64,000 nucleotides of DNA, taken from positions 3,494,785 through 3,558,784 of the forward strand of contig CM119263.1 in NCBI GenBank assembly GCA_051294375.1, read 5' to 3'. Source of the stretch: Paraspadella gotoi. Lineage: Eukaryota > Animalia > Chaetognatha. Of the stretch, positions 44,895-64,000 are shown piece by piece; positions within the stretch are counted from its first letter, which is position 1, and every line of letters begins with the position of its first letter. The notes under the pieces are model-generated. The model saw nothing but the letters and a program-made list of their open reading frames with translations. It was not told the origin of the DNA and ran no database searches. Made by a program: the position numbers and the translations under genes.

Positions 44895-44939
<45 letters not shown>

Positions 44940-45127
44940 GTGAACTCAATTTCCGATGAAAGTCGATTCCGTAATACTTTGTTTACCATGCTCATGATAA
45001 CCAAACTTAAAACTTTTTAAGTGAAAAAAATTGGAAAAAGTTGGGGGGAGAGGAAAAAAGAAAAGAAAAAAGGGAGGAAAAAAAAAAGGGGAAGAAAGGG
45101 GGGAGAGGGGAGAAGAAAGAGGAAGGA

Positions 45128-45161
<34 letters not shown>

Positions 45162-45893
45162 AAAGAAATCTGAATTAAGAATTACCGCGCCCTGGAAGAA
45201 TAGAATTCAGGCTCGACTTTCGGAAAAAACAGATTTTGACCGAAATCAAAAGTCGATGAAAAATTCGGATTAATATTTTTCAAATTATTATATTTTCATA
45301 TATACGTCCCGAACATATTTGTTCATAAGGATCAGTTTAAATCGATCATCAATGCTTTTTGCGTCTCTTCTTTTTTCGTCAAGACAAACTTTGTTATTTT
45401 AACCCTGAATTTTAAATAACTTGACAAAATCCCCCCCAAAAATTCAAAAAATCCATGAACAATAATTTTTAAATGTTGGACAAGTTGTTCTTTCTTTCTT
45501 GCTTCCCTCTCCCCCGGACTCGCTTGACAAAAAAGTATTCATTATTCCAAGTCATTAATTTTGCTTACAGCATTATTACGAATAAAAAAAAAGTTGCTAA
45601 ACCGCTAGAATAAAAAATACGTCCTTGTGTCATTTATCTATTCTTTTTTTGTTATGATTTTTATATTCTCTTTCTTAATTAAATAATATCAATATCATAA
45701 TTTAATTTCCTTTTCATCGAATTTCATTTTCAATTAATTATTTCATGAATTCATTCTTTGTTCCATTTACTAATGGATTCGTTTAAATTTGTTTTCATTC
45801 ATGAGTTTAAATCGTTAAATTCATTAATTCGAATTATGTGATTCACGCCCCTCTCGATTCCTATCAGCGTTCCCAATAACCCTTCAATAAAGA

Positions 45894-46727
45894 TGGCTCT
45901 CATGTCAACAAGAACTTTCGAACACCGGGTCGAATTTTCGCCCGGTTGGCGTGGTGGCGTGGTGATTGGTGAGGCTGGGGCATCAAAACGGGTCTGGTGG
46001 TGACGCACTTTTCTCACGCGCGCGCCATCTTCGACTATTGGTGGCGCTGGACGCGCTGAACGCGGCGCTGCTGGAATCTGCGTCTGGTTGGCGTACGCGG
46101 CAATTTCATTGGATCAAGAGGCCCACCGGAAAAAGAGGTGGAGTGGACTTTGAATTTAAGGGTAAGTTGGAGAATGGTGAGGTTATGGGTGAGGGTAAGG
46201 TGAGGCAGAAGAGGGTAAGTCTTAAGCGGAGAGGTTTGGGGTATGGTAAAGAGGAAAAGGGCAAGGAAATGAATCGTACAATAAAATGGATACCAAAGTC
46301 TTAGGTTTTTGCAATGCGGGTCTGAAAAATATTAGAGAGATTCGTTAAAAAAGTTTGTCTAATATACAAATTTGTATCCATATTTATTTTTGTTTAAAAT
46401 TTAAAACTTCGGCGAGGGAAAATCGAAAAACTAACGAAGCTCCTCACTTTTTTCAAAAGCCTCTCAGAAATAGGATTAAGAATTCAAAAATAAGTAAAAT
46501 ATAACTGTAAATAAGACTTTATTTAACTTACCTTTCCCTCCGCAGCTGGAAGTGACGAGCGCGGTCCACCCGGAGTGGATGATCTTCTTTCCCTTCTTCT
46601 GCTACACTTTCTAAAGCGTCGTCAGCCTCTTTGTCAAGAGTTTGTGCTCATTTTTGTGGAAGATTTCGACGACGATCCCTTGAGGAAAAGAGCACAAAGG
46701 TTAGAAAGAAAGAAAGAGAGAGATAGA

Positions 46728-46764
<37 letters not shown>

Positions 46765-47385
46765 AATAGGGAGAGATAGAAGAGAGAGATAGAGAGAGAG
46801 AGCAAAACACAATCCTTTGTCCTCAATGCCCAGGAATTCCGCGAGAACTCTGCAGATTCGCCTTGGACTCACGGCCCTCATCTTCTTCTTCTTCTCCCTC
46901 TGTTCACCAAAACGCTCACCCGAATCACGTGAGGAAACATCTCATTGGACAACTTGGCCGGTGAGCCAAACGGGGGGGGGAGAGTGTATTTTTGGCAAGG
47001 TGGCGAGGTCTTTTGATTTCCTGATTTTTTTTTTTTTCTGTTTAGTTACTTGAACTCTGAGTTATTGTGAAGTACTGCTGAGCAAGACGTTTCGATTTTC
47101 TAACTTGTCTAATTTGAAAAACCAGTCATCATTATTTTTTTCTTTATAAGCTATTCTCCTCTTCCATTCGGAGCACAGTGATCTTTTCCTCCAGGAATTG
47201 GTGACTTCCTCGACGTCCTTAGACAACAGTGGAATTCTTAGAACTTCTCTTCGACGATGTCCGTGAAAACTCCGCAAGGATATCTCGTCTGCGTGATGGT
47301 CTTTTCTTGCCGTCGCTTCTCTTCGTCCCTTGCATCGCAAATTCTCGATCTCAGCGAAAGCAATTTTGGCGCCAGCCCTCTGACA
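45894..47385 (+). pseudogene. Indel-riddled inverted copy of TMEM121-like exons 1-4 (probably a noisy-read duplicate)
   Basis: Reverse complement of 48515-49953 with scattered single-base indels; same exon and intron layout. Confidence 0.6.
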
Positions 47386-47852
47386 GGTGATAGATTTGTC
47401 CGGCTTGTCAGCGCGAATATGGCGCATAGGCCCTCTGACAGGTGATAGATTTGTCGGCTTTTGTCAGCGTTAATACGGCGCTAGGCCCTCTGACAGGTAT
47501 AGATTTGTCAGACTTGTCAGCTCTAAATACGGCGCCAGGCCGTCCTGAGCAGATTTTCGGTGCTCTTATGATGCCTGACCTTTTGATAAGGTAACAGTCT
47601 CTGCAATGCTCTTATGGTGGCTAGGGTCCGTTTGACTCGGCCAGTCTTTCAGTGCTTACGGGGGCTAAGCAACAGTAAACAGCCTCGCCAGCGTTATTTA
47701 GGTGGTCAGACAATCTGGTCGCTAACAGGTTTGTCAGAAAGGAGCTGAGGACTTTGAATTTGACAATATGAATTTATAATTGTACCGATATTTTCCTATG
47801 TATAAATATCAACCCTATTTTTAAATCACCAACATACTCATACCTTACCCAG

Positions 47853-47958
47853 ACAGCCCTCCACGCCCTCTTCCTATCAGATGAACCTCGCCTTCGTCAA
47901 CGTTCTTACCTCGTCGTCCGCGTTCTCACCAAACTTCATCATCGTCATCAATCACGTC
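47853..47958 (+). CDS. Partial next exon of the TMEM121-like gene, lying in the spacer of the large inverted repeat
   Basis: Acceptor ttacccag, then ...YQMNLAFVNV[P]YLVVRVLTKLH after one 1-nt indel correction. This fits the last-helix N+P+L.+R motif of the family and is oriented as the continuation of the left-arm copy. Confidence 0.55.
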
Positions 47959-48339
47959 GAGTATGATTGGGATTAAAATAGGGATTGATATTATACATAT
48001 GAAATCGGTACAATTATAAATTCTTGTTCAACTATAAATAAAATTCGTTGCAAACAAAAACTTCTTTTGATATCGTCTATACATAGGAAAAATCGGGTAC
48101 AATTATAAATCATAATTGTCAATTCAAAGTCTCAGCTCCTTTCTGACAAACCTGTTAGCGACCAGATTGTCTGACACCGAATTAACGGCTGGCTAGGTGT
48201 TACTGCATTGCTTTAGCCCCGTAATAGCCACTGAAAAGACTGTTGCCGGTCAAACGGCCCTAGCACCATAAGAGCATTGCAGAGCTCGTTACCTATCAAA
48301 AGGTCAGGCATCATAAGAGCACCAAAATCTGTCAGACGG

Positions 48340-48535
48340 CCTGGCGCCGTATTAGAGCTGACAAGCCTGACAAATCTATCACCTGTCAGAGGCCTAGCGC
48401 CGTATTAACNNNNNNNNNNNNNNNNNNNNNNNNNGCTGACAAAGCCGACAAATCTATCACCTGTCAGAGGGCCTAGCGCCATATTCGCGCTGACAAAGCC
48501 GACAAATCTATCACCTGTCAGAGGGCCTGGCGCCA
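48340..48535 (-). repeat. ~52-bp tandem repeat that includes the exon 4 donor site of the TMEM121-like gene (mirrored at 47366-47555)
   Basis: Unit GGCGC(C/T)AGGCCCTCTGACAG|GTGATAGATTTGTCGGCTTTGTCAGCGCGAATA, at least 3 copies, interrupted by an N-gap. Confidence 0.85.
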
Positions 48536-49079
48536 AAATTGCTTTTGCTGAGATCGAGAATTGCGATGCAAGGGACGAAGAGAGCGACGCAAGAAAAGAC
48601 CATCACGCAGACGAGATATTCTTGCGGAGTTTCACGGACATCGTCGAAGAGAAGTTCTAAGAATTCCACTGTGTCTAAGACGTCGAGGGTCACCATTCCT
48701 GGAGGAAAAGATCACTGTGCTCGAATGGAAGAGAGAATAGCGATAAAGAAACAAATAATGATGACTGGTTTTTCAAATTAGTCAAGTTAGAAAATCGAAA
48801 CGTCTTGCTCGCAGTAACTTCACAATAACTCAGAGTTCAGTAACTAAACATAAAAAAAAAAATCAGGAGATCAAAAGCACCTCGCCACCTTGCCAAATAC
48901 ACTCTCCCCCCCGTTTGCTCACCGGCCAAGTTGTCCATGAGATGTTTCCTCACGTGATTCGGGTGAGCGTTTTGGTGACAGAGGGAGAAGAAGAAGAAGA
49001 TGAGGGCCGTGAGTCCAAGGCGAATCTGCAGAGTCTCGCGGAATTCCTGGGACATTGAGGACAAAGGATTGTGGTTTTG

Positions 49080-49110
<31 letters not shown>

Positions 49111-49111
49111 C

Positions 49112-49147
<36 letters not shown>

Positions 49148-49953
49148 TTCTCTCTAACCTTTGTGCTCTTTTCCTCAAGGATGTCGTCGAAATCTTCCAC
49201 AAAAATGAGCACAACTCTGACAAAGAGGCTGACGACGTAGAAAGTGTAGCAGAAGAAGGGAAAGAAGATCATCCACTCCGGTGTGGTCACCGCGCTCGTC
49301 AACTTCCAAGCTGCGGAGGAAAAGGTAAGTTAAATAAAGTCTTATTTACAGTTATATTTACTTATTTTTTGAATTCTTAATCCGATTTCTGAGAGCTTTT
49401 GAAAAAAAGTAAGGAGCTTCGTTAGTTTTCGATATTCCCACGAAGTTTTAAATTTAAACAAAAATAAAGATGAATACAAATTTTATTATTAGACAAACTT
49501 TTTTAACGAATCTCTTTAATATTTTTCAGAACCCGATGCAAAACCTAAGACTTTGGTATCCATTATTGTCCGGTCCATTTCCTTGCCCTTTTCCTCTTTA
49601 CCATATCCCAAACCTCTTCGCTAAGACTTACCCTCTTCTGTCTCACCTTACCCCTCGACCCATAACCTCACCCTCTCGCACTTACCCTTAAATTCAAAGT
49701 CCACCTCCACCTCTTTCTTCCGATGCCGCTTGATCCAATGAATTGCCGCGTACGCCAACCAGACGCAGATTCCCAGCAGCGCCGCGTTCAGCGCGTCCAG
49801 CGCCACCAATACGTCGAAGATGGCGCGCGCGTGAGAAAAGTGCGTCACCACCAGACCGTTGATGCCCCAGCCTTGTACCATCACCAACGCCACCAACGCC
49901 AACCGGGCGAAAATTCGACCCGCGTGTTCGAAAGTTTTGTGACATGAGAGCAT
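48515..49953 (-). CDS. TMEM121/CECR6-family multi-pass membrane protein, exons 1-4 (49953-49686, 49310-49159, 49046-48923, 48698-48515); 3' part cut by the fold-back
   Basis: All junctions are GT-AG and phase-compatible (1,0,1). Spliced product: MLSCHKTFEHAGRIFARLALVALVMVQGWGINGLVV...AWKLTSAVTTPEWMIFFPFFCYTFYVVSLFVRVVLIF...EFRETLQIRLGLTALIFFFFSLCHQNAHPNHVRKHLMDNLAGMVTLDVLDTVEFLELLF...VPCIAILDLSKSNFG. The V.LD.LD and PC.A+..+S motifs match TMEM121 (human VALDLLDLLD, LPCVALSEVS, from memory). Confidence 0.75.
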
Positions 49954-50911
49954 CTTTATTGAAGGGTTATTGGAACGCTGATAGGAATCGAGAGGGGGGT
50001 GAATTCACATAAAATCGAATTAATGAATTTAAACGAATTTAAACTCATGAATGAAAACAAATTAAACGAATCCATTAGTAAATGGAACAAAGAATGAATT
50101 CATTGAAATAATTAATTGAAAATGAAATCGATGAAAAAGAAATTAAATTATGATATTGATATTATTAATTAAGAAAGAGAATATTAAAAATCATAACAAA
50201 AAAAGAATAGATAAATGACACAAGGACGTATTTTTTATTCTAGCGGTTAGAACTTTTTTTTTAATTCGTAATAATGCTGTAAGCGAAAATTAATGACTTG
50301 GGAATAATGAATACTTTTTTGGCAAGCGAGTCCGGGGGAGAGGAAGCAAGAAAAGAAAGAACAACTTGTCCAACATTAAAAATTATTGTTCATGATTTTT
50401 TGAATTTTTGGGGGGGATTTTGTCAAGTATTTAAAAATTCGGTAAAAATAACAAAAGTTTGTCTTGAACGAAAAAGAAGAGCACGCAAAAAGCATGATGA
50501 TGCCGATTTAACTGATCCTTATGAACAAATATGTCGCGGACGTATATATTTTTTTTAAAATAATAATAATTTGAAAAATATTAATCCGAAATTTTTCATC
50601 GACTTTGATTTCGGTCAAAATCTGTTTTTTCCGAAGTCGAGCTGAATTCTATTCTCCAGGGCGCGGTAATTCTTAATTCAGATTTCTTTTCTCTCTCTCT
50701 CTCTCTCTCTCTTCTCTCCTCTCTCTCCTTACCTCTTTCTTCTCTCTCTCCCCCTCTTCGTCCCCTTTTGTTCTCCTCTCCTTCTTGTCTCTCTGTTTCC
50801 TCTCCCCCCAACTTTTTCCAATTTTTTTCACTTAAAAAGTTTTAAGTTTGGTTATCATGAGCATGGTAAACAAAGAATTACGAATCGACTTTCACGGAAA
50901 TTGAGGTTCAC

Positions 50912-50956
<45 letters not shown>

Positions 50957-51524
50957 AACCGCATTGAAAATCTTTATCTTCTCGCGGAATAAATCATTCG
51001 CTCAACTATAAGTCTATTTTAACAATAGGGATTTAGTCACTAAGGAATTGCCTCTATAAGAAGTCAAACTACGGTGGAACGAATAAGAATAGTTTCAATA
51101 AAAAATAAAAAGTAACTAAACCTCAAACAGTTATGGGAAATAGAAGTATGTTGTCCCAAAAAAGAGAGCATACAATTAAAATATGGAAAAAAGAAGGGAA
51201 ATTATAAAGAAAAGAAAAATATTTGCTAGGTTTCAATCTTAATAATTGGTAAAAAGAGCAGATGTATCATAAAGATATGTATGTAATTTCAGAATTCTAC
51301 TTTTTTGCTTCCTTTTAAAAATATCCTATTTATATGAATGAATATTTTTTTTTAATTCGTTGTACCAATTTATATTCATCAAAGTTTTTCAAAATTGCTT
51401 TATTTTACATAGCTTTTCCTGCTCATTTGCCTTTTGTTTATTAACCAAAATTTCTCAATCATTCTTACGAAGCTTTTTTTCCGTTTACGAAAAAAAGGCC
51501 CGGTAATCATGACTCCTAACAAAC

Positions 51525-51573
51525 TGGTTTTCCCGCACTGAATATTTTGGGCAGTGATCCAGTATATAAAAGG
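51525..51573 (+). promoter_or_regulatory. Candidate core promoter of paralogue 1: TATA box plus upstream kB-like site
   Basis: TATATAAAAGG at 51563-51573, ~180 bp before the ATG. TGGTTTTCCC (GGGAAAACCA on -) at 51525-51534. Confidence 0.35.
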
Positions 51574-51749
51574 TGCTTGATCAACTTTTCCCAATAAACT
51601 GCAACGACTAAAAATCTATTTAACTCGAATTATGATAAATTTATTTGGAGCCATAAACTTAATAAAAGATTAAGGATTGTTTTTATAAAAAAAAATTATC
51701 AAATCAAAATACTAAAAAAATATCTCTGAATATTCTCTAATATTAAAAA

Positions 51750-54700
51750 ATGAACTTTTTTCCCGTCTTGCCGCTGTTTTTGGCTTTTTACAGTCAGACA
51801 GCCGGCTACATCATCAACAACAACAATGACTACTTACCCGATCCCGTCCTAATCCCATGCTGTCTTCCTCTGAGTCAAAAACTCACTTGCGGCCTAAGTA
51901 ATACTTCCGACCCCACGCCCACTTCTGATGCCACGCCTACTTTCGATGCCACGCCCACTTCCGGCGTCTCGTGGAAACTCGATGGCGATCCCATCCTTCG
52001 CGGCGTCTCGCTCGACGGCGCCCTCTTCGTCGGACGCCCATCTCCGCCGCAGCCGCCGCAGCCGCCGCAGCCGCCGAATCACTCAGCCTCTCAGCCATCC
52101 GTCCTTCCTCTCATTTCCTGCCCGGCGGACTCGCCTCTCATCGAGTCCGGTTGCCCGACGGGACGAGCTGTTCGTTGGCGCCTCTGTAGCGATCCAGTCA
52201 ATTGTTCGATCGATGCCGACGACGAAAAAAGCCACGAACGACAAAACTGCAGTCTGTGGACGAAACCGAAAATTGAATGGACTAAAGCTATGATTGAAAT
52301 CAATGACAATGACAATAACGACAACAAAGCCACGCTCTTCGTTCTCTTCCGATGTCCCGCGAGCATCGAGTGTCGAATGAGTCTTCGCTTTGAGAAATCG
52401 GATCGAATTCTCGTCCAGGAGACTTTTTCAAGTCGAGACGATCAAGCGACTTGTGATCATCTTTGGGTCGCCGCATTCGACGCTCGTGCTGTTGACGCCG
52501 CTGCGGAAGCCGATGCAGCAACCGACGTCGCTGCCAACACCACCGCCAACTCATCCGCTCCTTTCATCATTGTCCTCGAAACCCTTCAAGATGATTTCGC
52601 TCGAAGAACCGGCTTAGATAAAGTCATCTCTGAACCTTTCCGTTTCTCCCGAGTAGATCGTCCGGTAGAGCCGACTCCGGGCTCCAAGTCCTCATCGCCA
52701 ATTTTCGTGTTGTCGATCATCCTGGTCACCATCATCCTCATCGCTTCCATCCCCGCGCTAGTCGTGGGTTGTCGCATTATGAAAAAAGGGAGCGCCCACT
52801 CGTGGTCGCCACCCAGCGACGGGTCTTCCATCGAATTTCGTCCACGTTCAAAGTCGGAATCTGCTCGTCGAGACTCGAACACGGTTGGATACGAAAGACT
52901 GAGACTGGAGACTGTTAAAGATCAGAAAGCCGGAGAGGGCAATCCGCGATCAGATGTTTTTGACGAAAAAGTTCCATTTTTAGACGATCGTTCCTCGTCG
53001 ACATCTTTGTCATCGCCGTCGCAATTCCAAATCCTTTGTCATCTCTTGTGCCCGGGTGCCTCAGGAGAGAAGCCGAACTTGAGCGATGAAGATTTCAAAG
53101 ATGAAGCGATGATTCAATTAAACCGAAACCATTACGTTTATCTCGAAAATTCTGTAGGCGTGGAAGCCTTGGAAAAACTCGCATCGTCGGGACAGGTCGT
53201 CAAATTTAGGAAATTCGACCGAAAAGTTTGTATGTACGTGAAGACGACGCTAATAGCGACTATTTTGGACAAATTGCACGAGGTGGATCACGTGATCAAC
53301 CAGCTGGATGAACGATTTAAACGTGAATCTGATGTAGTGAAGGAAATGAATATGGGACGGTACCCAGTGAAGGCGGTCGTGAATCTCATTTACACATATT
53401 TTGATTCGGATGATGAAAAACAAAAAGACATTGCTCTTTCGGTCTTAAATCATTTGAGATACTTGGGTTTCTTGTATCCCGCTCCATTGTTTTGCATCAG
53501 TGCAGAAGTGGCTGAGCTGGAGACGTGGTATCAAATTCCTCACGTGACCAAAGCAAGATTTTCGTCCGACTCGTGGGAGATGAATACTGAGGAATATCAG
53601 ATTGGCCATGTATTTGTTACCAGCAAGGAAATTCCACAATACCTTTTGTCTCTGATTTCATTATCCGTTAACAAATTTTGTCAATATCCTACAAGAATTG
53701 ACTGGGAAAACGGGATTGTAGCTTCAAGTGGTGATATATCTGTTTACATCGAGAAAACAAGTAAAAACAAAAAAGGGGCTTATCAAGTCAAAAGCATTCC
53801 TCGATCTCTCCTAGTTGTTTGTCGCGGGCCACAAAATCAAAAAGATGCTGTAACCCTAATGCTGGAATCTTTTAAGGAGTTTATTTTGGGTTACTTTTCA
53901 ATTTGGCCGGATATTGAGGTAGAAACAAATGTCGCATGTATCAGTAAAACCGGAACAGTCAAACCGCACAGGATTGACAAAAAAGGGAATCAATTTAATT
54001 GTGACGTTTGTCAAGCAATCACGGAAATCTCGAGAGAGATTCAAATGGAAAAGTTTTCACACGAAAACACACCCTCTCATTTGTTCAATACCTCGGGAGG
54101 TTTTACGTTTCCAGAAATAAAATTTAGCAAACAAAACCTACAGACAACCACCGATTTTAAAATTCATGACGAAAAATCAATTGCTAACCAGATGACCTCT
54201 AAATTTGACTATGGTGCGTTGGTACTGAGCGACGTTGTTCCTGATGAAGAGGCTGAGTTTGACTGCGCGTCAATCCAAATTCCAGAAAAGCAAGCTTATG
54301 AAAACTTAAAGGGTGCTGTCGCAAGCATCGGCTTTGAGGCGGAGGGCATGTTTCAACATCGCGGTACAGCGGCGTTAATGCAGATAGAAAAAAGTACAGG
54401 CAAAATAACTTTGTTGTCCTGTTTACACGTTATCAAGTATGTAGCTATAGAAAACAGTGGCGAGAATCCCTGTTCGATTGACGAAATAAACAAGTTTTTA
54501 CAAGAATTCAAACTTGGAGTTTCTTTTGATACCAAACTCAATTCATCCGACGGTACAACGATAACGCATTTCATCATCAATGTAGTGGATAACAAGTTTA
54601 GTCCAGAAGAGGAAACTGATCACGTTTTGTTGGAAGCAATAAAGAACCCAAATTCTACCTACAGGCTTAGAGTGCAACCACTGGGTGCGCTTTTAGATTT

Positions 54701-55277
54701 CAGAATGAAAGAATGCATCTCAAATTCTATGAAAAAGTTTATAATAATTGGCTACCATAAAGGTTGTGACAAAAAATTTGATTGCGCCACCTATGGATAT
54801 TCGTTAACTGTTACAATTGCAGTCAGAAACAGTCAGGATTTGAAACATTATAAGATGCTTCCACAAATTAAGATTAAAGTTTCTGAGAATCTAAGAAAGT
54901 TGATTACCTTTCATGACAAACACTGTAACCAATCCCATCATATTAAAGATTGTTCTCAATATGGTCAAGACAATGACCTTTATGGAAGCTTAATGCAGTA
55001 TCTAAACCACAATGATGAATTGCCAATGTTGACTGACCCACGAAGAATTTTGCTGACAACGCAATTCAGACAAGGTGCCTCAGGCTCACCAATATTTAGT
55101 TCCAGCATGGAGAGACACTTATTTCCAAACTTTCCTAATGTGAGTGATTTCAGACCGTCCTTATTAATTGGATTGTTCTTGCGTGGTTTTCCAAAAGCAT
55201 CAATTGAATATCCTGAATGGAAAATTCCATTTATGATTGAACAAGGCGCTTGGATCTGGGAAATTATTGAAGAGTGA
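51750..55277 (+). CDS. Single-exon type I membrane protein, 1175 aa: signal peptide, Cys-rich ectodomain, TM, COR-like domain, FAM111-like trypsin-fold serine protease (paralogue 1)
   Basis: Uninterrupted 3.5 kb ORF. Hydrophobic N-terminus MNFFPVLPLFLAFYSQTAG. TM IFVLSIILVTIILIASIPALVVGC (aa ~318-341, nt ~52701-52772) followed by RIMKK. COR-like pattern at aa ~470-760 (ALEKLASSGQVVKF...LNHLRYLGFLYP...WYQIPHV...IPQYLLSLISL...WENGIV...VVCRG...WPDI...C...CDVC). Protease motifs GTAAL, SCLHV (His893), ETDHVLL (Asp957), IIIGYHKG, QFRQGASGSPIF (Ser1111). Colinear with the neighbouring ORF along its whole length. Confidence 0.9.
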   Translation: MNFFPVLPLFLAFYSQTAGYIINNNNDYLPDPVLIPCCLPLSQKLTCGLSNTSDPTPTSDATPTFDATPTSGVSWKLDGDPILRGVSLDGALFVGRPSPPQPPQPPQPPNHSASQPSVLPLISCPADSPLIESGCPTGRAVRWRLCSDPVNCSIDADDEKSHERQNCSLWTKPKIEWTKAMIEINDNDNNDNKATLFVLFRCPASIECRMSLRFEKSDRILVQETFSSRDDQATCDHLWVAAFDARAVDAAAEADAATDVAANTTANSSAPFIIVLETLQDDFARRTGLDKVISEPFRFSRVDRPVEPTPGSKSSSPIFVLSIILVTIILIASIPALVVGCRIMKKGSAHSWSPPSDGSSIEFRPRSKSESARRDSNTVGYERLRLETVKDQKAGEGNPRSDVFDEKVPFLDDRSSSTSLSSPSQFQILCHLLCPGASGEKPNLSDEDFKDEAMIQLNRNHYVYLENSVGVEALEKLASSGQVVKFRKFDRKVCMYVKTTLIATILDKLHEVDHVINQLDERFKRESDVVKEMNMGRYPVKAVVNLIYTYFDSDDEKQKDIALSVLNHLRYLGFLYPAPLFCISAEVAELETWYQIPHVTKARFSSDSWEMNTEEYQIGHVFVTSKEIPQYLLSLISLSVNKFCQYPTRIDWENGIVASSGDISVYIEKTSKNKKGAYQVKSIPRSLLVVCRGPQNQKDAVTLMLESFKEFILGYFSIWPDIEVETNVACISKTGTVKPHRIDKKGNQFNCDVCQAITEISREIQMEKFSHENTPSHLFNTSGGFTFPEIKFSKQNLQTTTDFKIHDEKSIANQMTSKFDYGALVLSDVVPDEEAEFDCASIQIPEKQAYENLKGAVASIGFEAEGMFQHRGTAALMQIEKSTGKITLLSCLHVIKYVAIENSGENPCSIDEINKFLQEFKLGVSFDTKLNSSDGTTITHFIINVVDNKFSPEEETDHVLLEAIKNPNSTYRLRVQPLGALLDFRMKECISNSMKKFIIIGYHKGCDKKFDCATYGYSLTVTIAVRNSQDLKHYKMLPQIKIKVSENLRKLITFHDKHCNQSHHIKDCSQYGQDNDLYGSLMQYLNHNDELPMLTDPRRILLTTQFRQGASGSPIFSSSMERHLFPNFPNVSDFRPSLLIGLFLRGFPKASIEYPEWKIPFMIEQGAWIWEIIEE

Positions 55278-56162
55278 TCACGAATAGTTATATCTAGCCC
55301 TTTCAAGGATTTTTATCATAGTTTAATACTAATTTTCGACTGATAATCTGATGCTTTTTTTGGTTTATAATGATGCACTTAATCGCTTTATTTAATGGCA
55401 CCATGACAGTATTTAAAAATGTCATTTCTTCTTAAAAGCTCGTTTTTTGTACTTAGTTCTTTGATAATCATTCAATTTTGTTAACTTTTTTGTCATCTCT
55501 AAATAGATGAAGATGAATTGTGATTAAAAGAGTTTAATCCTCATGAATCCTCTGAATACAAAAAATGTAGTTTCAAATTTAATTCATAAAAGAAACCTCA
55601 AAAATAGTTATTTAATCTAAATTAAAAAATTACTATACTATGATTTTTTAAGTTGAAATAAAGTGGCGCGTTATTTTTTTGGACAGGACTGTAATTTTTT
55701 CACTCTTAGGAATTACTGTAAATTTTGGAATTAAAATGAAGTAAGTTTGAAAGTAATTGTAAGAAATGTAAGTTTTAGAATGAAAATGAAAGGCCAGAAA
55801 AAAAACAAAATGCCTTTTGTTTTTTTTTTTTTTTTGTTTCACTCCTTTTCCACCGCTGGTCCCCACTTCTTAAGCTTGATCTTTTTGCTGAAATTACGAC
55901 ATTAGATGCAACATGAAAAGCTCCTGAGTTCCTGCCAATTTTTGTCGCTACATTACAGCTTCATAACTGCCTTTTAAACTTTACTTAAACTATGAATTCA
56001 ATATAACATAAAGTATATAAGTATAAGTATAAGTATAAGTATAAAAGTATATAAACATAAAGTAAAACTTGAATGAATGGATAATTTTTATATTGGTTGT
56101 ACCAATTTCATAATGAATTTAATATAATAAAATTTGACCAATGTACTTACACCTACAAAAAA

Positions 56163-59100
56163 ATGAATTTCACTTCAATATTCATCATTCTCGTTGCCAC
56201 TTTTGGTGCCACCGTCATTTCCTCTGATCTCACATCCATCACTTCTTGTCTTCCTCTTCGCCAAACTCTCAATTGTGACGCTGGTTCCAACCGCGGCGTC
56301 GCCTGGACTCTTGATAGCGCCGATAATAACTACACTGTCACAAAGGATGGCGTTTTGAACGTACGTCACTTGGCGCCGTCGCCAACCTCGCCATGCGGCG
56401 CCAAGTCAGCGATCGTCAGCGCGACATGCTCTGGCACCGAATCCATGCAGAGCGGCATTCGCTGGCGCCTCTGTGTTTCAGATTCCTGCTCTGAAATGAG
56501 AAACTGCAGCATTGAATACCAATCGTCAATCGTTTCTACAGAAGCCCGAGCGTTAAATGGAAGAACCGTCTTTTTTGTGGGGCTCCGTTGTCCGTCGTGG
56601 TATGAATGTCGGGCAACTCTCTTTCAAAGGGGAAATGACTCCAGAATTATCGGTCGGCGAAGGTTCACGTGTGAAGAGCAGTGTCAGCCTTGCAACGATT
56701 TGTGGGTTTTGACAGAAAGAGAAGTTGACTTTGTAGCAGAGTATGAAGTTGGGCTCGAGTCCGACCAGGATGGCTTTGCAAGAAGCTTCTTTGCACGAAA
56801 CTCCAAGACCTCCAAATTAGTTTCAAGACCATTTCGCATCACTCCAAGATTGACGTTTGCTTTTGCGGAAGCTGCTAACATTCACCCAGAGGAAGATATA
56901 TCCGACCACCCTCTCCTCATTGCGAAACGTCCGCTTCTTTCGCCGGAATCTCCACCTCAAAGGGGCGAAGGCAAAAGCACAAAATCCGGGATAAATTTCA
57001 GTCTCCTCACATTTTTGTACATCGTCGTCGCAGTAACGATTCTTTTGATTGTTATTTTAGCCTTGGCCCAGGCCTTCAGAAAAAATAGGGCTTGGTCTTG
57101 GTCCCCAAGAGGAAAAGTAGTGCAGAGGGAACAAGTTGGACTTCGTTCAAAATCGGATTCTTCGTATGCCAAAACATTGAGCGACCAAAGCGGGGGAGAG
57201 GGTTTTGAAAATTCCAGAGAAGCCAATTTTTTAAGGGGAGACTTAGAAGAAGCAGAATACGATCATGAATCGCCGATGGATGTTTTCGAATCAACTCCAT
57301 TTATAGCAGATGCCCCTAAGCATGAATCTAGAATCGATGTCCTGTCTATTTTGCTTTGTCCTGGTGTAACCATAACCAAATCTATAACCGGTCAAGACTT
57401 AAAAGATAGTAAACTTGCTTCTTTAGATAAGTTTGAATATGTTTACATCAACAAAGATGAGAGCTCAATTTCTCTAGATCGTCTTTGTGAATCTGGGAAA
57501 GTGATTAGAATAAAGACCAACAGCGGAAATTCACTATACATTAAAACTTGTTTGATGGCGCATATTCTTGAGGAACTTCATCATGTGGATCGGATGATTG
57601 AGCTACTTAATGATCATGACAGAGATAATCATGATGTCATATTAGAGCTTAAAGAGGGGAAGTTTCCAGAACAAGTAGTCATTGATAAGATTTGTCAGTC
57701 AATCCATTTGGATCAAAGTAAGAAAAGTCACGATATTTCCAATTCTGTACTTAATTATTTAAAGTATATGGGCTTTTTGTATCCCATACCTTTGTTTTGT
57801 CTAAACGCTGATGTTGATGACAATCAGAAGTGGTTTCAGATTCCACATGTTTCCACAGATAAGTTTTCCAAAGAACAATGGTCTTGCAAAACCAATGAAT
57901 ACCAAATTGGTTATATTTATAATGCTAATCAAGACATTCCACCTTATCTTTTGTCACTGATTTCATTATCAGTAAACAAATATTGTCAATATCCAACCAG
58001 AAAAGACTGGAATAATGGTCTGACAGCATCCAGTGGAAATGTTGCAGTTTACATTCAGCTGGAAAATAATATTCCTGGTAAAAAAAACGGAGCATATAAG
58101 CTAGAGAGTTATCCGAACTCACTTTTTATAGTTTGCCGAGGACCACTTTCACAAAAACAATCGGTTAGCCTAATGTTGGAGGCTTTTAATATTACCATAT
58201 TAGGATATTGTACTCTCTGGCCATACATAAAGTTTGAAAGACATTATGCTTGTATTTCTCAAACGGAATCAATTAAGTCCCATGGAATCGCTGATCAAAC
58301 TGATGTTCGTGAAGACTGCAACATTTGTCAACCTATTGTAGAAATTCCTAAAGAAATACCAAAGGAGAGGTTTACACATGAAAACCCAGCACCTCAACTA
58401 AATGCATTTCCTGGTTGTTTCACAAAACCTGTCTCTCCTCAACCAAGCAATAATCTATCTATAGATAGCTCATACAGCAGCATGGAAAGTGGCATTGTTC
58501 ACCATTCGAATTTTGAGGCATCTCCTAATCAAAGCACAAGGGATGAATATGATCCAAATATGAATATGATCCAAATCACTGACAGACAGGTATATGAGAA
58601 TCATAAACAAGCTGTCGCAAGCATTGGTGTGTACTTATTTGGTCGCTTCCAGCATTATGGAACATGTTTTTTAATCAAAATATTTCGAGGGGCGAACAGA
58701 AATATTAATGAACAAATTCACATCATGACTTGCATGCATGTGATCCATGCCATTGCGTTTAAAAATAAATTTAAAATTCCAACAACTTTAGCTGAGATAA
58801 ATAGTTTTTTGTCCCAGTTCAGGATTTGCATTTCTTTCGATGACAAGTTGGAATCGCAGCGCACAAAAGTTACTCACGTTGTCACCAAAGTAGTTGAGGG
58901 AAACTTTGGTTCCAACAATGAAACGGATCACATTATGCTTCACGCTATGAAACTATCACCAATCGGTCATGGGCTCATGGTGCAGCCTCTGGAGCAACTT
59001 TACGACTCTGGATTGATAAATTCAAATCCTTCTATTTTGAGAAATATCCTCATCGTTGGTTATCACGAAGGAAGATGGAAGATGTACGATCCCTGTTCAT

Positions 59101-59585
59101 ACAAGTATTCCTTTACAATTACTTGTGCTGCTAAAGTAAAAAGGGAATTAAATTCCATGATTATGAATACCGAGGTGAAGCAAAGAGTTAGAGAAAACGT
59201 CGAGGTATTGGACGAAAATCACGAGAGGCAGTGCGTTGGTCCCAGCGATCATACTATCGAAAATTGCCCGTACCATGGGCTGGAGGAGGATGTGCGTTGC
59301 TACGAGACATTGATGAAAGATTTGGACAAGGATTCAGAGTTGGCCATGTTGACTGATCCAAGGAGGATCTTGGTCAAAACTCAGTTCAGACAAGGGTCTT
59401 CGGGATCCCCGATCTTCACTACGGGTTCAGAAAGGACTTTATTCCCTTTGCGTCCGAGAGTCCCGAACTTTCAACCCGTTTTTCTGATGGGAATGTTTTT
59501 GCGGGGTTTTCCGATGGCGGCTCAAGATAACAACGAGTTGTCATTTTTGATGAAGCAGGGCGTTTGGATTCAAAGTATAGCGTGA
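56163..59585 (+). CDS. Single-exon type I membrane protein, ~1140 aa, tandem paralogue 2 with the same SP-ectodomain-TM-COR-like-protease architecture
   Basis: The ORF track starts at TTG 56097, but ATG 56163 gives MNFTSIFIILVATFGATVISS, a signal peptide with the same A-run/MNF start as paralogue 1. TM LLTFLYIVVAVTILLIVILALAQAF at ~57003-57077, then RKNR. COR-like region ~57470-58330. Protease motifs GTCFLI, MTCMHV (His codon 58737), ETDHIML (Asp codon 58926), ILIVGYHEG, QFRQGSSGSPIF (Ser codon 59400). Confidence 0.9.
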   Translation: MNFTSIFIILVATFGATVISSDLTSITSCLPLRQTLNCDAGSNRGVAWTLDSADNNYTVTKDGVLNVRHLAPSPTSPCGAKSAIVSATCSGTESMQSGIRWRLCVSDSCSEMRNCSIEYQSSIVSTEARALNGRTVFFVGLRCPSWYECRATLFQRGNDSRIIGRRRFTCEEQCQPCNDLWVLTEREVDFVAEYEVGLESDQDGFARSFFARNSKTSKLVSRPFRITPRLTFAFAEAANIHPEEDISDHPLLIAKRPLLSPESPPQRGEGKSTKSGINFSLLTFLYIVVAVTILLIVILALAQAFRKNRAWSWSPRGKVVQREQVGLRSKSDSSYAKTLSDQSGGEGFENSREANFLRGDLEEAEYDHESPMDVFESTPFIADAPKHESRIDVLSILLCPGVTITKSITGQDLKDSKLASLDKFEYVYINKDESSISLDRLCESGKVIRIKTNSGNSLYIKTCLMAHILEELHHVDRMIELLNDHDRDNHDVILELKEGKFPEQVVIDKICQSIHLDQSKKSHDISNSVLNYLKYMGFLYPIPLFCLNADVDDNQKWFQIPHVSTDKFSKEQWSCKTNEYQIGYIYNANQDIPPYLLSLISLSVNKYCQYPTRKDWNNGLTASSGNVAVYIQLENNIPGKKNGAYKLESYPNSLFIVCRGPLSQKQSVSLMLEAFNITILGYCTLWPYIKFERHYACISQTESIKSHGIADQTDVREDCNICQPIVEIPKEIPKERFTHENPAPQLNAFPGCFTKPVSPQPSNNLSIDSSYSSMESGIVHHSNFEASPNQSTRDEYDPNMNMIQITDRQVYENHKQAVASIGVYLFGRFQHYGTCFLIKIFRGANRNINEQIHIMTCMHVIHAIAFKNKFKIPTTLAEINSFLSQFRICISFDDKLESQRTKVTHVVTKVVEGNFGSNNETDHIMLHAMKLSPIGHGLMVQPLEQLYDSGLINSNPSILRNILIVGYHEGRWKMYDPCSYKYSFTITCAAKVKRELNSMIMNTEVKQRVRENVEVLDENHERQCVGPSDHTIENCPYHGLEEDVRCYETLMKDLDKDSELAMLTDPRRILVKTQFRQGSSGSPIFTTGSERTLFPLRPRVPNFQPVFLMGMFLRGFPMAAQDNNELSFLMKQGVWIQSIA

Positions 59586-61583
59586 AAAATTCAAATATAA
59601 CATTTCATTGCATTATTTAAAAAAAAACAAAACACTAGCCAGTTTATTCAAGAAAAATATAGTTATTCTGTTTAATTCTATTTTAAAAAAAATTTTGAAG
59701 TCCCAATTTAAAAATGTGCCTCTCTTGGAAGAATAATGTTTTTTCCACTGCCTTTATATGTTTTACTTATTTTTTATTTCAACACAAGTCAGATAAATTT
59801 TATAACTGAATCATATATACTATCTGCTTTTTTTTCAGAAGAGCATATTTGCACAAACAAATTTTTATACAAATATTTTTTTTTTTATAATAATCCAATT
59901 AATTTTGCTTAGTCACTGATAACAATATGAGGCAACCTGATTTGTTATAAAAGTTGTGCGTTTGCTAGTCTTCTTTTCTACCAAAATTACTTAAATTGAG
60001 ATTGTTATTCTTACTTTGATTCTGTAAAAAATATTTTTTATATTAAATATACTTACATTTTATTGTTATTGGCCTGCGTTTTTAATAAGTTTCATTACTT
60101 AAAGGTGATTTTGAAGTTTTTTAGCAAAAAAACAAAGTTTAAAGGACGAAAAAGATGTAGTTTTATTATTTATTGTAGATGTGAGATTAATTATCTTAAG
60201 CCGATTGAAATAGTTTGTGAAAAAAAGACATTTCAACGAAATGATGTAACGCACTCATTATTTACTGCCGAGGCGCAGATCATATTTCTCATCCAAATCG
60301 AAGGCTGAGAATCCAATTTTCTCTGTTTTTTTTCTCTTCATTCCGACATCTGGATATCTCAAGGGAGAATCAACTCTGTTTTTGTTGATTTCAATCGTGA
60401 GGCAGGTTAAACGAAAGCCTATGATGATTAGAGTGGAGCTCTCGGGACCCAATTTTTATTTGAGTCAATTAATCAAAATGAATTATTTATAAGATAAAAA
60501 ATTAAAACATATTGTTTGGGAACAGAACTGGAAAATACAATATATTTATAGTAAGATATAAAGTAACATATTTTACAAAAAATGTTTAATTTTTATGTTC
60601 TTAAATTAAAAAAAACATTTGAAAATTTATAAGGATATTTCTACATAAAAAATATAATTTGCGATACTTTTATACCAAAAAAAACTTTTAAAGGGCATAA
60701 ATCTAGGCTTGGTGCCAGTAATGAGTGTTTTCAACGCCCTTAAGGTAGTTTACAACTTTACAGCCATCCTCACGCTCTCCGCAGGGTAAGTACCTTTGGG
60801 ATCGATCGCGGAAGCTGATTGTCATAAACAATAACATTATTATCATGTTGTTCTTAACTTTAGGAATATTTATTCAACGCAGATTTACAAATTCTACTAT
60901 ACTTTAGTGTATATGGACAGATAAAAATAATATTTAAAACTAATCTATCATCTCAGTTTAATGAAAAAACAAAACCAAACACATTTGAAGATTTTGTTAA
61001 ATTTCCTTCAGAGTGACTTGCGTCAAAAAGACAAATAAATACTCTAATACATGGAAACACGGCCATGCAAAGTGAATTTAACAATAATTTATTGAAACTG
61101 ACCAGTAAGTGGAAGGAGAATCAAAAACAAAAATTACGAATAAACTACTATAGTCACGATCAGTAAAAGCAAATTCCATCCCAGTTTATTTTAGAACAGG
61201 CATTCGACAAATCTTTCACCAACAAATGGGCACACAGTTATCACACTCAAGCACCATTATGTTAAACCCAATGTCAGTATAAGCTTAATAACAAAGCACT
61301 TTTTTTTTAAATACAATTTAAAAAGCAAATTGAAATCTATATAAAATTTTTCAAATAAAAACATTTTTAAAAATAATTTCAGCGATAGTTTAAGTTTAGA
61401 AAAAAATTAGGAGAAAAACATCGGCATGCTTCAAATATTGAAGTTAGATTTCCGTTTTTAAATACAAATTTAACATTTTAATTAACTTGGCGACAAGGAA
61501 TGACTCCGGCAAGGCATCGTGAAAATCGTGGCGAAATCCAAATGAGACGTGAAGTTCCTCATCCTCAACTTCAGCCTCTTCAT

Positions 61584-64000
61584 TCATCCTCCACATCCCC
61601 CACATCCTCCACATCCACCGCCACATCCTCCTCCATCTCCGCCACCGTCGCCACCGTCGCCACCGTCTCCGCCTCCGCCGCCGCAGGAGGCGCCGCAGCC
61701 CGCGCAGGCGTCGATGTCCGCCGCAGCGCAGGCGCCGCAAGCGCCACATTCCATGTAGAAGACGGTCGTCGCCATGTAGCTGAAAGAAAGTGTTTGTGGT
61801 CGATTAGTTGTGGTTGGGATCAAACAATTCGAAACAATTTTTTGGAAGGACACAAACTCATAAAATTAAATACAAATAAGTCAAATATATCTTTGTATAT
61901 TTTATCCGTCTTTTTGTTTTAATCAAACTAATTTTATCAAGGATCTTCTATTTCTCTCTTTAATTTTCTCTCTTCTCAAAATTTTTCTTATCCTATTTAC
62001 TACTTTCTCATTACGGCGGGATTTAGACATTAAAAATAAAACTCTTTTCTGTCATTCTAAACTTATTTTTTTTGATGAACAAATAGATTAAAATTGTGAG
62101 TTAAATTTAGTTGATTCTCGTCACCACCAGAAACAAGCCCCAACTTTCTTCATTTATCAAAATCAGGCCATCGCTCTAAGTTCACATCAATCTCGTAAAC
62201 TTCTCATCATTCACTAGACTCACTTGTGATGGTGAATCCCCGCCATCACCAACAAGTCCGCATCGTAAGTATCGTACGCCCGTGGCGTTCGGCTCATATC
62301 CGGCCGCGGGACCTCGCCCGTGTCTAGCCGCGGCTGAAGCAGCGACTGCAGGATGGCGACGCCGAAAGCCCCGGCGAGGGAGCCCAACTGCTCGTCGACT
62401 CCGTTGCGCGAAAATGTGATGTTGCTCGACTTGAGGTTGACCTCGGCGTCCATGACTTCAAAGTGAAGATCGTTGCGAACGAAAAATCTTTGGGCGATCG
62501 AAGGTTTGGAAAAGAGTTTTCGTTTTGGATCGAGGAGACTGCGATGTCGAAGGTTGAAGTGAGTCACGGAGAGTTTGCCCGGGGTGTGCTCGGAACGACC
62601 CTCCCATTGAGCCACCAAGACGGCCGCGTCACCTTGGATGGAGAATGGAGATGAAAAGGCTTGATTTTAAATTTATTAATGTAGGGGAAAAACAAAAAAA
62701 GAAAAACAAAAAAAAATATTAAACAAAAGAAAAAAAACCAAAAAAACCAAAACATAAATTTTGAAAAATGATTTTAAGATTTAAAAATTTTAAAAATTTA
62801 AAACTTTAAATAAACAATTCAAAATGGTTTTAAAAAGATTTATTCAACCCTCCCCTAAACTTATTCACTCTCACACTTTCCGTCCCTTTTTATTTTCCTC
62901 TTCCTCATCCTCTTATTCCACCTCCTCTTCTTCCTCATCATCCACCTCTTCCTCATCCTCTTCTTCTTCCTCATCCCCCTCTTCCTCCTCCTCCACCCTC
63001 GACTCCCTCTCACCTTTCCTATTCATGACAATCATCGACAGATCCGTCCTGTGATTGGTTCCGTGCATGGTGTTCTCATCACTCCCCTCTCCTCATCCTC
63101 TTCTTCTTCCCCCTCCTCTTCTTCCTCTTCTTCCCGTTCTCTTCTTCCTCCTCATCCCCTCTCCTCATCATCTTCTCCCCCTCCTCTTCTTCCTCATCAT
63201 CCCCCTCTTCCTCCTCCTCCACCTCGACACCCTCTCACCTTTCATATCATGACAATCATCGACAGATCCGTCCTGTGATTGGTTCCGTGCTTGGTGTTCT
63301 CATCACTCCCTCTTCCTCATCCTCTTCTTTTCCCCCTCCTCTTCTTCCTCTTCTTCTCCCTCTTCCTCCTCATCCACCATCGACTCCCTCTCTCCTTTCA
63401 TATCCATGACAATCCTCTTCTTCCTCTTCTTCCCCTCCTCTTCTTCCTCAGCATCCTCTTCTTCTCCCTCTCTTCTTCCTCCTCATCCCCTCTTCCTCAT
63501 CCTCTTCATCCCCTCCTCTTCTTCCTCATCATCTCCTCTTCCTCCTCCCCCACCATCGACTCCCTCTCACCTTTCCGATCCTTGACGATCATTGATCTTC
63601 GCTTGTTCTGCTTCTTCATCGTATTCATCAACATCATCGGCAGATCCGACCTGTGATTGGTTCCGTGCTTGGTGTCCTCCATCAGAGATTCCGATCCTAT
63701 CGTGTGGCAGCAGGCGAAGACGACGGGCTCGGCCGGCGCCGCGGCACCCGCTGCGCCGGCGGCCGCGGCCGCCGCGTCGACGCCGCCTGCGCAGGGGCGC
63801 CACTCGTCTACGACGAAGGCAGCTGAGAAGGGCGGTTTCTGTGTATGGACGACGACGACGTCGAAAGGCTTCTGCTCGGGCGACTGCATCCGGTGAATCC
63901 CGTAGACGACGGTGGCGCCGGCGTCGGGCGCGAAGTGAAGATGGCGCCAGCCCACGAAAGGAGGGTGGCCGGCGCCTCGGTGAAGGTTCCTTGGATGAGG
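61584..64000 (-). CDS. 3' exons (>64000-63571, 62632-62224, 61779-61584) of a glycine-rich domain-containing protein (GRDP/DUF1399-like)
   Basis: GT-AG, phase-compatible splicing gives ...FDVVVVHTQKPPFSAAFV...VFACCHTIGSESL...RRSMIVKDRK/GDAAVLVAQWEG...PGKLSVTHFNL...SLAGAFGVAILQSLLQPR...HHN/YMATTVFYMECGACGAC...GGGCGGGCGGCGGCGG-stop. The Gly/Cys tail and A.AF.VA+L..L.QPR motif are recalled from GRDP-like proteins; the DUF1399 domain itself would lie beyond the window. Confidence 0.7.
62990..63680 (-). repeat. ~228-bp intronic tandem repeat built from pieces of the GRDP-like exon end plus a purine-rich tract
   Basis: atgacaatcatcgacagatccgtcctgtgattggttccgtgc occurs at ~63025 and ~63249 and matches exon sequence agatccgacctgtgattggttccgtgc at ~63642. 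ccctctcaccttt (the donor GAAAG|GTGAG on -) occurs at ~63005, ~63230 and ~63562. Confidence 0.8.

What the first reader, a model, noticed from the sequence alone, without database searches (positions are those of the whole stretch)
51750..59585. Tandem pair of putative 'receptor serine proteases': single-pass receptors with a cytoplasmic COR-like domain and a FAM111-like protease
Seen: two colinear intronless ORFs, each with a signal peptide, a ~300-aa Cys-rich ectodomain, one TM helix followed by basic residues (so the C-terminus is cytoplasmic), and a C-terminal trypsin-fold domain. Both keep the whole triad (C[L/M]HV, ETDH, G[A/S]SGSPIF) despite heavy divergence elsewhere, which implies purifying selection. 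Established: membrane-anchored trypsin-family proteases (TTSP/TMPRSS, prostasin-type) put the protease outside the cell. The motif set GT.F/L...TC.HV, IIG[H/Y]..G..K..D, T.F..GASGSP[V/I]F is the intracellular Trypsin_2/FAM111 type; FAM111A is a dimerisation-dependent protease with antiviral restriction activity; COR is the dimerisation module of ROCO proteins. Inference: these work like receptor kinases with proteolysis as the output, where ligand binding outside drives COR-mediated dimerisation and activates a cytosolic protease, plausibly in innate immunity, allorecognition or cell death. I know of no described family with this architecture.
Basis: partly seen in the sequence, partly recalled or inferred. 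Interest (0 to 1): 0.93.

Follow-up and report, generated by a model that had tools for sequence, protein, structure and literature searches.

The report
Animal receptors with a cytoplasmic protease
Two neighbouring, transcribed animal genes each encode a protein with a predicted outer sensor domain, one membrane helix and a trypsin-like protease predicted to lie inside the cell, so they likely signal by cutting proteins the way receptor kinases signal by phosphorylating them, a layout I did not find described in animals.

Summary
Both ORFs are real (1175 and 1140 aa). They are old paralogues (dS saturated), and each is covered by its own unspliced contig in an RNA-like run. Each has an N-terminal hydrophobic signal, a Cys-rich ectodomain and one membrane helix followed by basic residues, so the C-terminus is predicted cytoplasmic. 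The C-terminal domain is very likely trypsin-fold, with His, Asp and Ser motifs kept; a distant relative also keeps the serine motif. The middle domain is probably COR, but the support is weak: language-model neighbours scored 0.86 and a colinear profile match had low probability. There is no ROC GTPase. 'FAM111-like' is not shown. Both AlphaFold runs failed. COR plus protease is known in cytosolic ROCO proteins of bacteria and brown algae, and receptor-protease signalling is known from bacterial BlaR1. What looks new is a single-pass ectodomain in place of the LRR-ROC sensor, in an animal. Caveats: no activity data, only two fragmentary relatives, and the transcribed gene-1 allele has a frameshift just after the start codon.

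The parts
51750..55277 (+). Gene 1 ORF, 1175 aa (P0001), intronless
   Evidence: X1 contig over 51591-55414
51750..51806 (+). Gene 1 predicted signal peptide (aa 1-19); the X1 contig has an extra T here that would shift the frame
   Evidence: hydropathy; table 4
51807..52700 (+). Gene 1 Cys-rich ectodomain (aa 20-317); 9 Cys and one N-glycosylation sequon shared with gene 2; fold unassigned
   Evidence: no Pfam hit and no credible PDB hit
52704..52769 (+). Gene 1 transmembrane helix (aa 319-340), followed by CRIMKK
53022..54074 (+). Gene 1 COR-like domain (aa 425-775), ending in a conserved C730-H740-C751-C754 set (possible zinc site)
   Evidence: weak to moderate
54276..55274 (+). Gene 1 trypsin-like domain (aa 843-1175): His893, Asp957, Ser1111; an insertion with H1055-C1059-H1063-C1068 (possible zinc site)
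56163..59585 (+). Gene 2 ORF, 1140 aa (P0002), intronless
   Evidence: X1 contig over 56111-59974; the only listed indel lies upstream of the ATG
56163..56993 (+). Gene 2 predicted signal peptide (aa 1 to about 19) and Cys-rich ectodomain (to about aa 277)
57003..57071 (+). Gene 2 transmembrane helix (aa 281-303), followed by AFRKNR
57330..58391 (+). Gene 2 COR-like domain (aa 390-743)
   Evidence: relative P0003
58572..59582 (+). Gene 2 trypsin-like domain (aa 804-1140): His859, Asp922, Ser1080
   Evidence: relative P0004 keeps GTSGGP

Best explanation
These are two transcribed paralogous animal genes for predicted single-pass membrane receptors whose cytoplasmic tail carries a probable COR dimerisation domain and a likely active trypsin-fold serine protease, which would be switched on when a ligand binding the ectodomain brings or re-orients two tails together. 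Shown: the ORFs, their transcription, one membrane helix with basic residues after it, the triad motifs and old purifying selection. Inferred, in falling order of confidence: (1) the N-terminus is outside or in the lumen and the protease is cytosolic; (2) the protease is active; (3) the middle domain is COR and dimerises; (4) ectodomain engagement, not GTP, sets the dimer state, since ROC is absent; (5) the output is self-cleavage in the poorly conserved linker before the protease and/or cleavage of a latent cytosolic effector, most plausibly in defence or cell death. The likely origin is a ROCO-type COR-protease tail whose LRR-ROC sensor was replaced by an ectodomain and membrane helix.
For: Topology: N-terminal hydrophobic segment, a single strong helix, positive-inside charge, and 9 conserved Cys plus a conserved sequon on the N side; the C side has two conserved Cys/His quartets that look like zinc sites. 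Protease: 30 ESM-Atlas hits led by Trypsin_2/S1 clusters at 0.95, with 10 of 10 sharing family or clan. Pfam Trypsin_2 E=0.021 at the Ser motif of gene 2, below the cut-off. A home-built trypsin HMM of 43 sequences scored gene 2 at 14.4 bits and gene 1 at 3.1; 0 of 1500 shuffles reached either score, and the His and Ser lobes matched in order in gene 2. P0004 keeps GTSGGP. COR: Atlas top hits COR-A/COR-B at 0.86, 10 of 10 sharing family. HHalign to 70 bacterial CORs gave 201 colinear columns, summed match probability 104 against at most 46 and 51 in 37 column and 37 block shuffles. In sliding windows the COR profile scored highest over aa 395-820. Selection: dS saturated, dN 0.44-0.50 in the cytoplasmic domains and 0.73 in the ectodomain; pN/pS against X1 is 0.43 and 0.34, with no change at a triad residue among 37 classified substitutions. 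Precedents: COR has an important role in Roco dimerisation (PMC6337361); FAM111A protease needs dimerisation (PMC10920703); ROCO proteins carry peptidase effectors (PMC8195603, PMC11378527).
Against: No structural confirmation: both AlphaFold models failed (mean pLDDT 27 and 36). The COR HMM did not detect either protein or P0003 above shuffles. HHalign probability was only 2.4%, 1 of 37 column shuffles beat the raw local score, and the COR-A half alone was not significant (3 of 100 shuffles reached its score). The Atlas COR score is under 0.9, a lead only. No alignment placed the catalytic Asp, and global alignment to trypsins failed. An insertion of about 55 residues lies between Asp and Ser. 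The X1 contig of gene 1 is frameshifted after the ATG. The two outside relatives are unlinked fragments of 152 and 174 aa, so they do not confirm the architecture. No ligand, substrate or expression pattern is known.
Confidence: 0.5

Rival explanations
1. Membrane-tethered cytosolic protease with no ligand-gated switch: the ectodomain only places it (ER, endosome, cell junction), and activity is constitutive or set from the cytosolic side, perhaps released by self-cleavage.
For: FAM111A self-cleavage does not need dimerisation (PMC10920703, abstract and passages). The linker before the protease is only 24% conserved. No ligand is known.
Against: The ectodomain keeps 9 Cys in register and is under constraint (dN 0.73 against saturated dS), more than a plain anchor needs. 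A dimerisation-type domain sits between the membrane and the enzyme.
Confidence: 0.2
2. Receptor with a pseudo-protease or scaffold tail: the motifs persist but the insertion distorts the active site, and signalling runs through partner binding.
For: The Asp-Ser spacing is 154/158 against 102 in FAM111A; the Asp was not aligned by any profile. Inactive trypsin effectors occur in bacterial conflict systems (PMC7159879).
Against: His, Asp and Ser motifs are all kept across saturated dS, and the Ser motif is also kept in distant P0004.
Confidence: 0.12
3. A receptor with a cytosolic protease, but the middle domain is not COR, so COR-driven dimerisation is wrong.
For: No Pfam COR hit; no single-sequence signal from the COR HMM; COR-A half not significant; all described Roco proteins pair COR with ROC (PMC6337361), and none is here.
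Against: Two independent weak methods both point to COR and to the same stretch. One Aplysia TIR protein is listed with a COR domain and no ROC named (PMC9334734).
Confidence: 0.12
4. Opposite topology: the protease is outside the cell, as in type II transmembrane serine proteases.
For: Gene 1's signal peptide is only moderately hydrophobic (19-mer 1.34) and is lost in the X1 contig. No dedicated topology predictor was run.
Against: Positive-inside charge in both genes, conserved Cys and sequon on the N side, a clear N-terminal signal in gene 2, and no conserved sequon on the C side.
Confidence: 0.06

Closest known systems
[quoted passage not shown]
   Same: COR followed by a trypsin-type peptidase as the output domain.
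   Different: Here there is no LRR and no ROC GTPase; a signal peptide, Cys-rich ectodomain and membrane helix stand in their place, in an animal.
BlaR1/MecR1 of staphylococci (PMC9834060, abstract)
   Same: An outside sensor controls a cytoplasm-facing protease in one dimeric receptor that self-cleaves and cuts a target.
   Different: BlaR1 is bacterial and uses a zinc metalloprotease; it is multi-pass (recalled) and has no COR. The likeness is one of logic only.
FAM111A/FAM111B (PMC10920703, PMC9798293; passages and one section)
   Same: Intracellular S1/Trypsin_2-type serine protease of animals; a helix is likely just before the first strand, where FAM111A has its dimer helix.
   Different: FAM111A has PIP and UBL domains and works at replication forks; no membrane helix is described. 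No sequence hit to FAM111, and the Asp-Ser spacing is about 55 residues longer here.
Crassostrea virginica Cys-rich ectodomain-TM-DED-TRADD-N-effector expansion (PMC8195603 section 10)
   Same: Invertebrate single-pass proteins with a Cys-rich ectodomain and cytoplasmic immune or cell-death modules.
   Different: Their intracellular part is DED and TRADD-N with Death, STAND, HEPN or AIG effectors; COR and trypsin are not listed.
Type II transmembrane serine proteases (TMPRSS, matriptase; listings, otherwise recalled)
   Same: One membrane helix and a trypsin-fold protease.
   Different: Their protease is extracellular and disulfide-rich; here it is predicted cytoplasmic.

Membership tests
Trypsin-like serine proteases (S1/Trypsin_2) | His, Asp and Ser motifs in order | tested here: met
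   His and Ser placed by profile, Asp by position and conservation only
Trypsin-like serine proteases (S1/Trypsin_2) | Pfam PF13365 at its curated cut-off (27.6 bits) | tested here: not met
   16 bits, E=0.021 in gene 2; no hit in gene 1
Trypsin-like serine proteases (S1/Trypsin_2) | Double beta-barrel fold with triad geometry | tested here: inconclusive
   AlphaFold pLDDT 36, Foldseek uninformative; Atlas features 0.95
Trypsin-like serine proteases (S1/Trypsin_2) | Serine-dependent proteolysis | not testable with these tools
   needs an assay
ROCO proteins | ROC GTPase directly before COR | tested here: not met
   no P-loop motif and only about 82 residues of linker between helix and COR-like start; a ROC profile aligned at most 14 columns in windows over aa 1-925
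ROCO proteins | COR domain | tested here: inconclusive
   for: (COR-B half); against: (COR-A half)
FAM111 | Detectable homology to the FAM111 protease domain | tested here: not met
   no hit in PDB sequences at E<=10 or among 1.84 billion representatives at E<=1e-3
FAM111 | UBL domains and PIP box (vertebrate members) | tested here: not met
   no Pfam hit; a signal peptide and membrane helix are present instead
FAM111 | Dimerisation-dependent activity through the N-terminal helix | not testable with these tools
Type II transmembrane serine proteases | N-terminus cytoplasmic, protease extracellular | tested here: not met
   signal-like N-terminus, positive-inside charge and Cys/sequon pattern; prediction by hydropathy only
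Type I single-pass receptor | Signal peptide, ectodomain, one helix, basic stop-transfer residues | tested here: met
   clear in gene 2, weaker signal in gene 1
Type I single-pass receptor | Ligand binding that changes cytoplasmic output | not testable with these tools
   no ligand known

The most novel reading that the evidence does not exclude
A class of animal 'receptor serine proteases': single-pass receptors derived from a ROCO tail in which an extracellular ligand replaces GTP as the switch on COR dimerisation and directly fires a cytosolic trypsin-fold protease, an irreversible signal alongside receptor kinases, phosphatases and cyclases; the family reaches at least one other distant organism (P0003, P0004).
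Probability: 0.4. Interest if true: 0.9.

Novelty: new variant of a known kind. Interest (0 to 1): 0.75.

Why it matters
Animal single-pass receptors with a built-in cytoplasmic enzyme are, from recall, kinases, phosphatases, guanylyl cyclases and a few nucleases; proteases such as caspases are recruited through adaptors. A receptor carrying its own cytosolic serine protease would add an irreversible output to that list. It would also be a natural case of COR working without ROC, which bears on the open debate about what COR dimerisation does in LRRK2-type proteins, and it gives a simple test system for that question. The modules and the logic each have precedents, so I rate it a new variant at the edge of a new kind.

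Tried and rejected
No genome is held for this window, so family size could not be counted. Pfam found nothing useful for the whole proteins and PDB sequences nothing. Weak PDB hits to tektin, MarR, MyD88 TIR and Cdc20 were rejected as short chance matches. Word-indexed protein searches found no relative for gene 2 aa 380-1140 (0 of 3772 candidates), only P0004 for the protease (1 of 1999), and none for the COR-like part among longer proteins (0 of 3923). No related loci were found in metagenome, prokaryote or viral contigs or in plasmids. Neither protein is in the exact-sequence collection. Both AlphaFold models failed and their Foldseek searches were uninformative. Complex prediction of a COR dimer was not available, so there is no verdict on dimerisation. 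No run on record as RNA was listed; X1 was judged RNA from its splice joints and low intergenic cover. Runs X2 and X3 held next to nothing, which is no evidence of absence. None of the 121 bacterial Roco frames showed a trypsin Ser motif by my pattern, but 41 were short loci and flanks were 3.5 kb. My three-Cys pattern matched the COR end in only 5 of 70 bacterial sequences, although their consensus shows a Cys/His cluster there, so the zinc-like motif is not counted as evidence for COR. A third paralogue at 41-44 kb was rejected as a probable assembly artefact. A viral origin found no support.
Full report
Observation. They align end to end at 34-39% identity. The window is animal DNA: the upstream gene is a spliced CECR6/TMEM121 family member (E=4.3e-10). 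I could not narrow the phylum, and no genome is held.

Expression. One run, X1, holds 78% of the sampled words; its type is only guessed as RNA. Laid on 44001-61200 it shows two CT..AC joints in the minus-strand neighbour, little intergenic depth, and one contig per gene without joints: 51591-55414 (29 substitutions, 10 gap letters) and 56111-59974 (12 substitutions, 8 gap letters, the listed insertion lying upstream of the ATG). I take this as two separate unspliced transcripts from another individual; it is one run of one study. Of 45 substitutions 40 were shown and 37 of those are coding: 11 silent and 17 replacement in gene 1, 4 and 5 in gene 2, none at a triad residue, giving pN/pS of 0.43 and 0.34. 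Against the reading: the gene-1 contig has an extra T in the six-T run after the ATG. The contig is 8 letters shorter than the window over 10 gap letters, so the other 9 are deleted letters, not shown (one gap row was dropped at a repeat), and would not restore the frame. That allele would lose its signal peptide, the next in-frame Met being 181, unless the contig is in error. Gene 2 is the cleaner case.

Topology. By hydropathy each protein has one strong helix (aa 319-340; 281-303) and a shorter N-terminal hydrophobic stretch, clear in gene 2 and weaker in gene 1. Charge is more positive after the helix (+3, +5) than before it (+1, +2). Nine Cys and one sequon are conserved on the N side and no sequon on the C side. 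This is type I topology by prediction; no dedicated predictor was available. The ectodomain has no Pfam or credible PDB match. Its first part reads like an immunoglobulin strand pattern, which is a recalled resemblance and untested.

Protease domain. His893/859, Asp957/922 and Ser1111/1080 are conserved. The ESM Atlas places aa 800-1140 next to Trypsin_2 and S1 clusters at 0.95; the two best clusters are eukaryotic, mostly molluscan, and the family share in the top cluster is only 18%. Pfam gives a sub-threshold Trypsin_2 match at the Ser motif of gene 2 only. Against bacterial trypsin-like domains (27 taken from 30 loci; 16 from 30 regions), HHalign matched the His lobe (1 of 76 column and 4 of 76 block shuffles reached the score) and the Ser motif (0 of 72 and 3 of 72), but global alignment failed. 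An HMM of all 43 scored gene 2 at 14.4 bits and gene 1 at 3.1, above all 1500 shuffles of each (maxima 6.3 and 1.5). The Asp-Ser distance is about 55 residues longer than in FAM111A (H385, D439, S541; PMC10920703, passages), and the extra stretch carries a conserved H-C-H-C set that may bind zinc. Nothing ties the domain to FAM111 specifically.

Middle domain. The Atlas lists COR-A/COR-B clusters first, at 0.86, which is a lead only. I built a COR profile from 70 of 121 bacterial Roco frames, those with at least 430 residues after the ROC motif. As an HMM it did not detect the single proteins: the top 12 rows were all shuffles. Profile against profile it aligned 201-210 colinear columns at 2.4% probability, E=0.02. 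One of 37 column shuffles and 0 of 37 block shuffles reached the local score, and none came near the summed match probability (104 against at most 46 and 51); in global mode 0 of 46 and 1 of 46 reached the score. Sliding windows put the best COR scores over aa 395-820 and the best trypsin scores over windows containing aa 840-1110. The COR-B half held alone (100 columns; 2 of 100 shuffles by score, 0 of 100 by summed probability); the COR-A half did not. I put COR at about 75%. ROC is absent: no P-loop, and about 82 linker residues between helix and COR-like start.

Relatives and selection. A full HMMER search of 1.84 billion representatives found two fragments: P0003, 152 aa, 31% to the COR-like part (E=1.5e-20), and P0004, 33% to the protease C-lobe, with GTSGGP (E=3.7e-13). 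Both are unnamed. They show that both domains have kin in at least one distant organism but not that they are joined there. Between the paralogues dS is saturated while dN is 0.44 (COR-like), 0.50 (protease) and 0.73 (ectodomain): an old duplication under constraint, with a faster ectodomain.

Mechanism. The most likely reading is a receptor whose ectodomain sets the dimer state of a COR-like tail and so switches on a cytosolic protease (0.5). The steps beyond anatomy are inferred. COR has an important role in Roco dimerisation (PMC6337361, passages); FAM111A activity on substrates needs a dimer while self-cleavage does not (PMC10920703); bacterial trypsin-like proteases activate latent defence effectors (PMC12799240 and 10.1101/2025.09.03.673762, search listing and start of abstract only). 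Rivals are a tethered, ungated protease (0.2), a pseudo-protease scaffold (0.12), a non-COR middle domain (0.12) and inverted topology (0.06). An immune or cell-death role fits the domain vocabulary and the faster ectodomain, but two conserved copies are not a large diversified family, so I hold that role at about even odds.

Comparison and novelty. COR with a peptidase effector is in print: bacterial LRR-AP-GTPase-COR proteins with trypsin among 24 effectors (PMC8195603, passages and section 10) and brown-algal group 3 and other SAR ROCOs (PMC11378527, passages; lead from earlier findings). [quoted passage not shown] A sensor controlling a cytoplasm-facing protease is known from BlaR1 (PMC9834060, abstract). 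Also seen as passages: PMC7159879, PMC5094078, PMC9334734 and PMC9798293 (plus section 10); none describes this layout in the parts I read. Nine full-text searches showed no signal peptide-ectodomain-helix-COR-trypsin protein in their listings. The library lacks most subscription papers, I read only the supplements of PMC8195603, and no InterPro architecture search was possible, so absence from print is not established.

Verdict. Real, transcribed and architecturally unusual; a new variant of the COR-protease kind, recast as a membrane receptor in an animal. Interest 0.75.

Noticed in passing
window 41257-47804 (-): An inverted copy of 48078-54559 (the TMEM121-like gene and two thirds of gene 1), 92% identical, with 298 gap openings, mostly one base, and 148 mismatches. 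This pattern suggests an uncorrected fold-back long read used in gap filling, not a third paralogue. It has six T after the ATG region, like the window copy.
   Followed up: partly
window 51755: The X1 contig has one extra T just after gene 1's start codon, a possible null or signal-less allele.
   Followed up: partly
window 48542-49924 (-): Four-exon CECR6/TMEM121 family gene, spliced in X1.
   Followed up: partly
window 56072-56112: A stretch of about 40 bases just upstream of gene 2 is matched by many unrelated X1 contigs (bin depth 8294), probably a short dispersed repeat; the first 102 letters of gene 2's contig do not lie on the window.
   Followed up: no
window 35060-36952 (-): Fragments of a probable G-protein-coupled receptor gene (LLSTERY motif; weak Srg chemoreceptor hit, E=0.031), interrupted by an N gap.
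   Followed up: no
window 51750-59585: Third-position GC varies along the genes: gene 1 0.58/0.42/0.37 and gene 2 0.50/0.28/0.47 for ectodomain/COR-like/protease. The GC-richer ectodomains could reflect a fusion origin or an ordinary 5' gradient.
   Followed up: no
window 53937-54011 and 54912-54953: Two conserved Cys/His quartets (C730-H740-C751-C754; H1055-C1059-H1063-C1068 in gene 1) that may be zinc sites, the second inside the protease insertion.
   Followed up: partly
window 60861-61200 (-): The end of a 2754-letter X1 contig of higher depth (105) lies here, so a transcribed gene ends about 1.3 kb downstream of gene 2; ORF 62223-62666 (-) had no Pfam hit.
   Followed up: no
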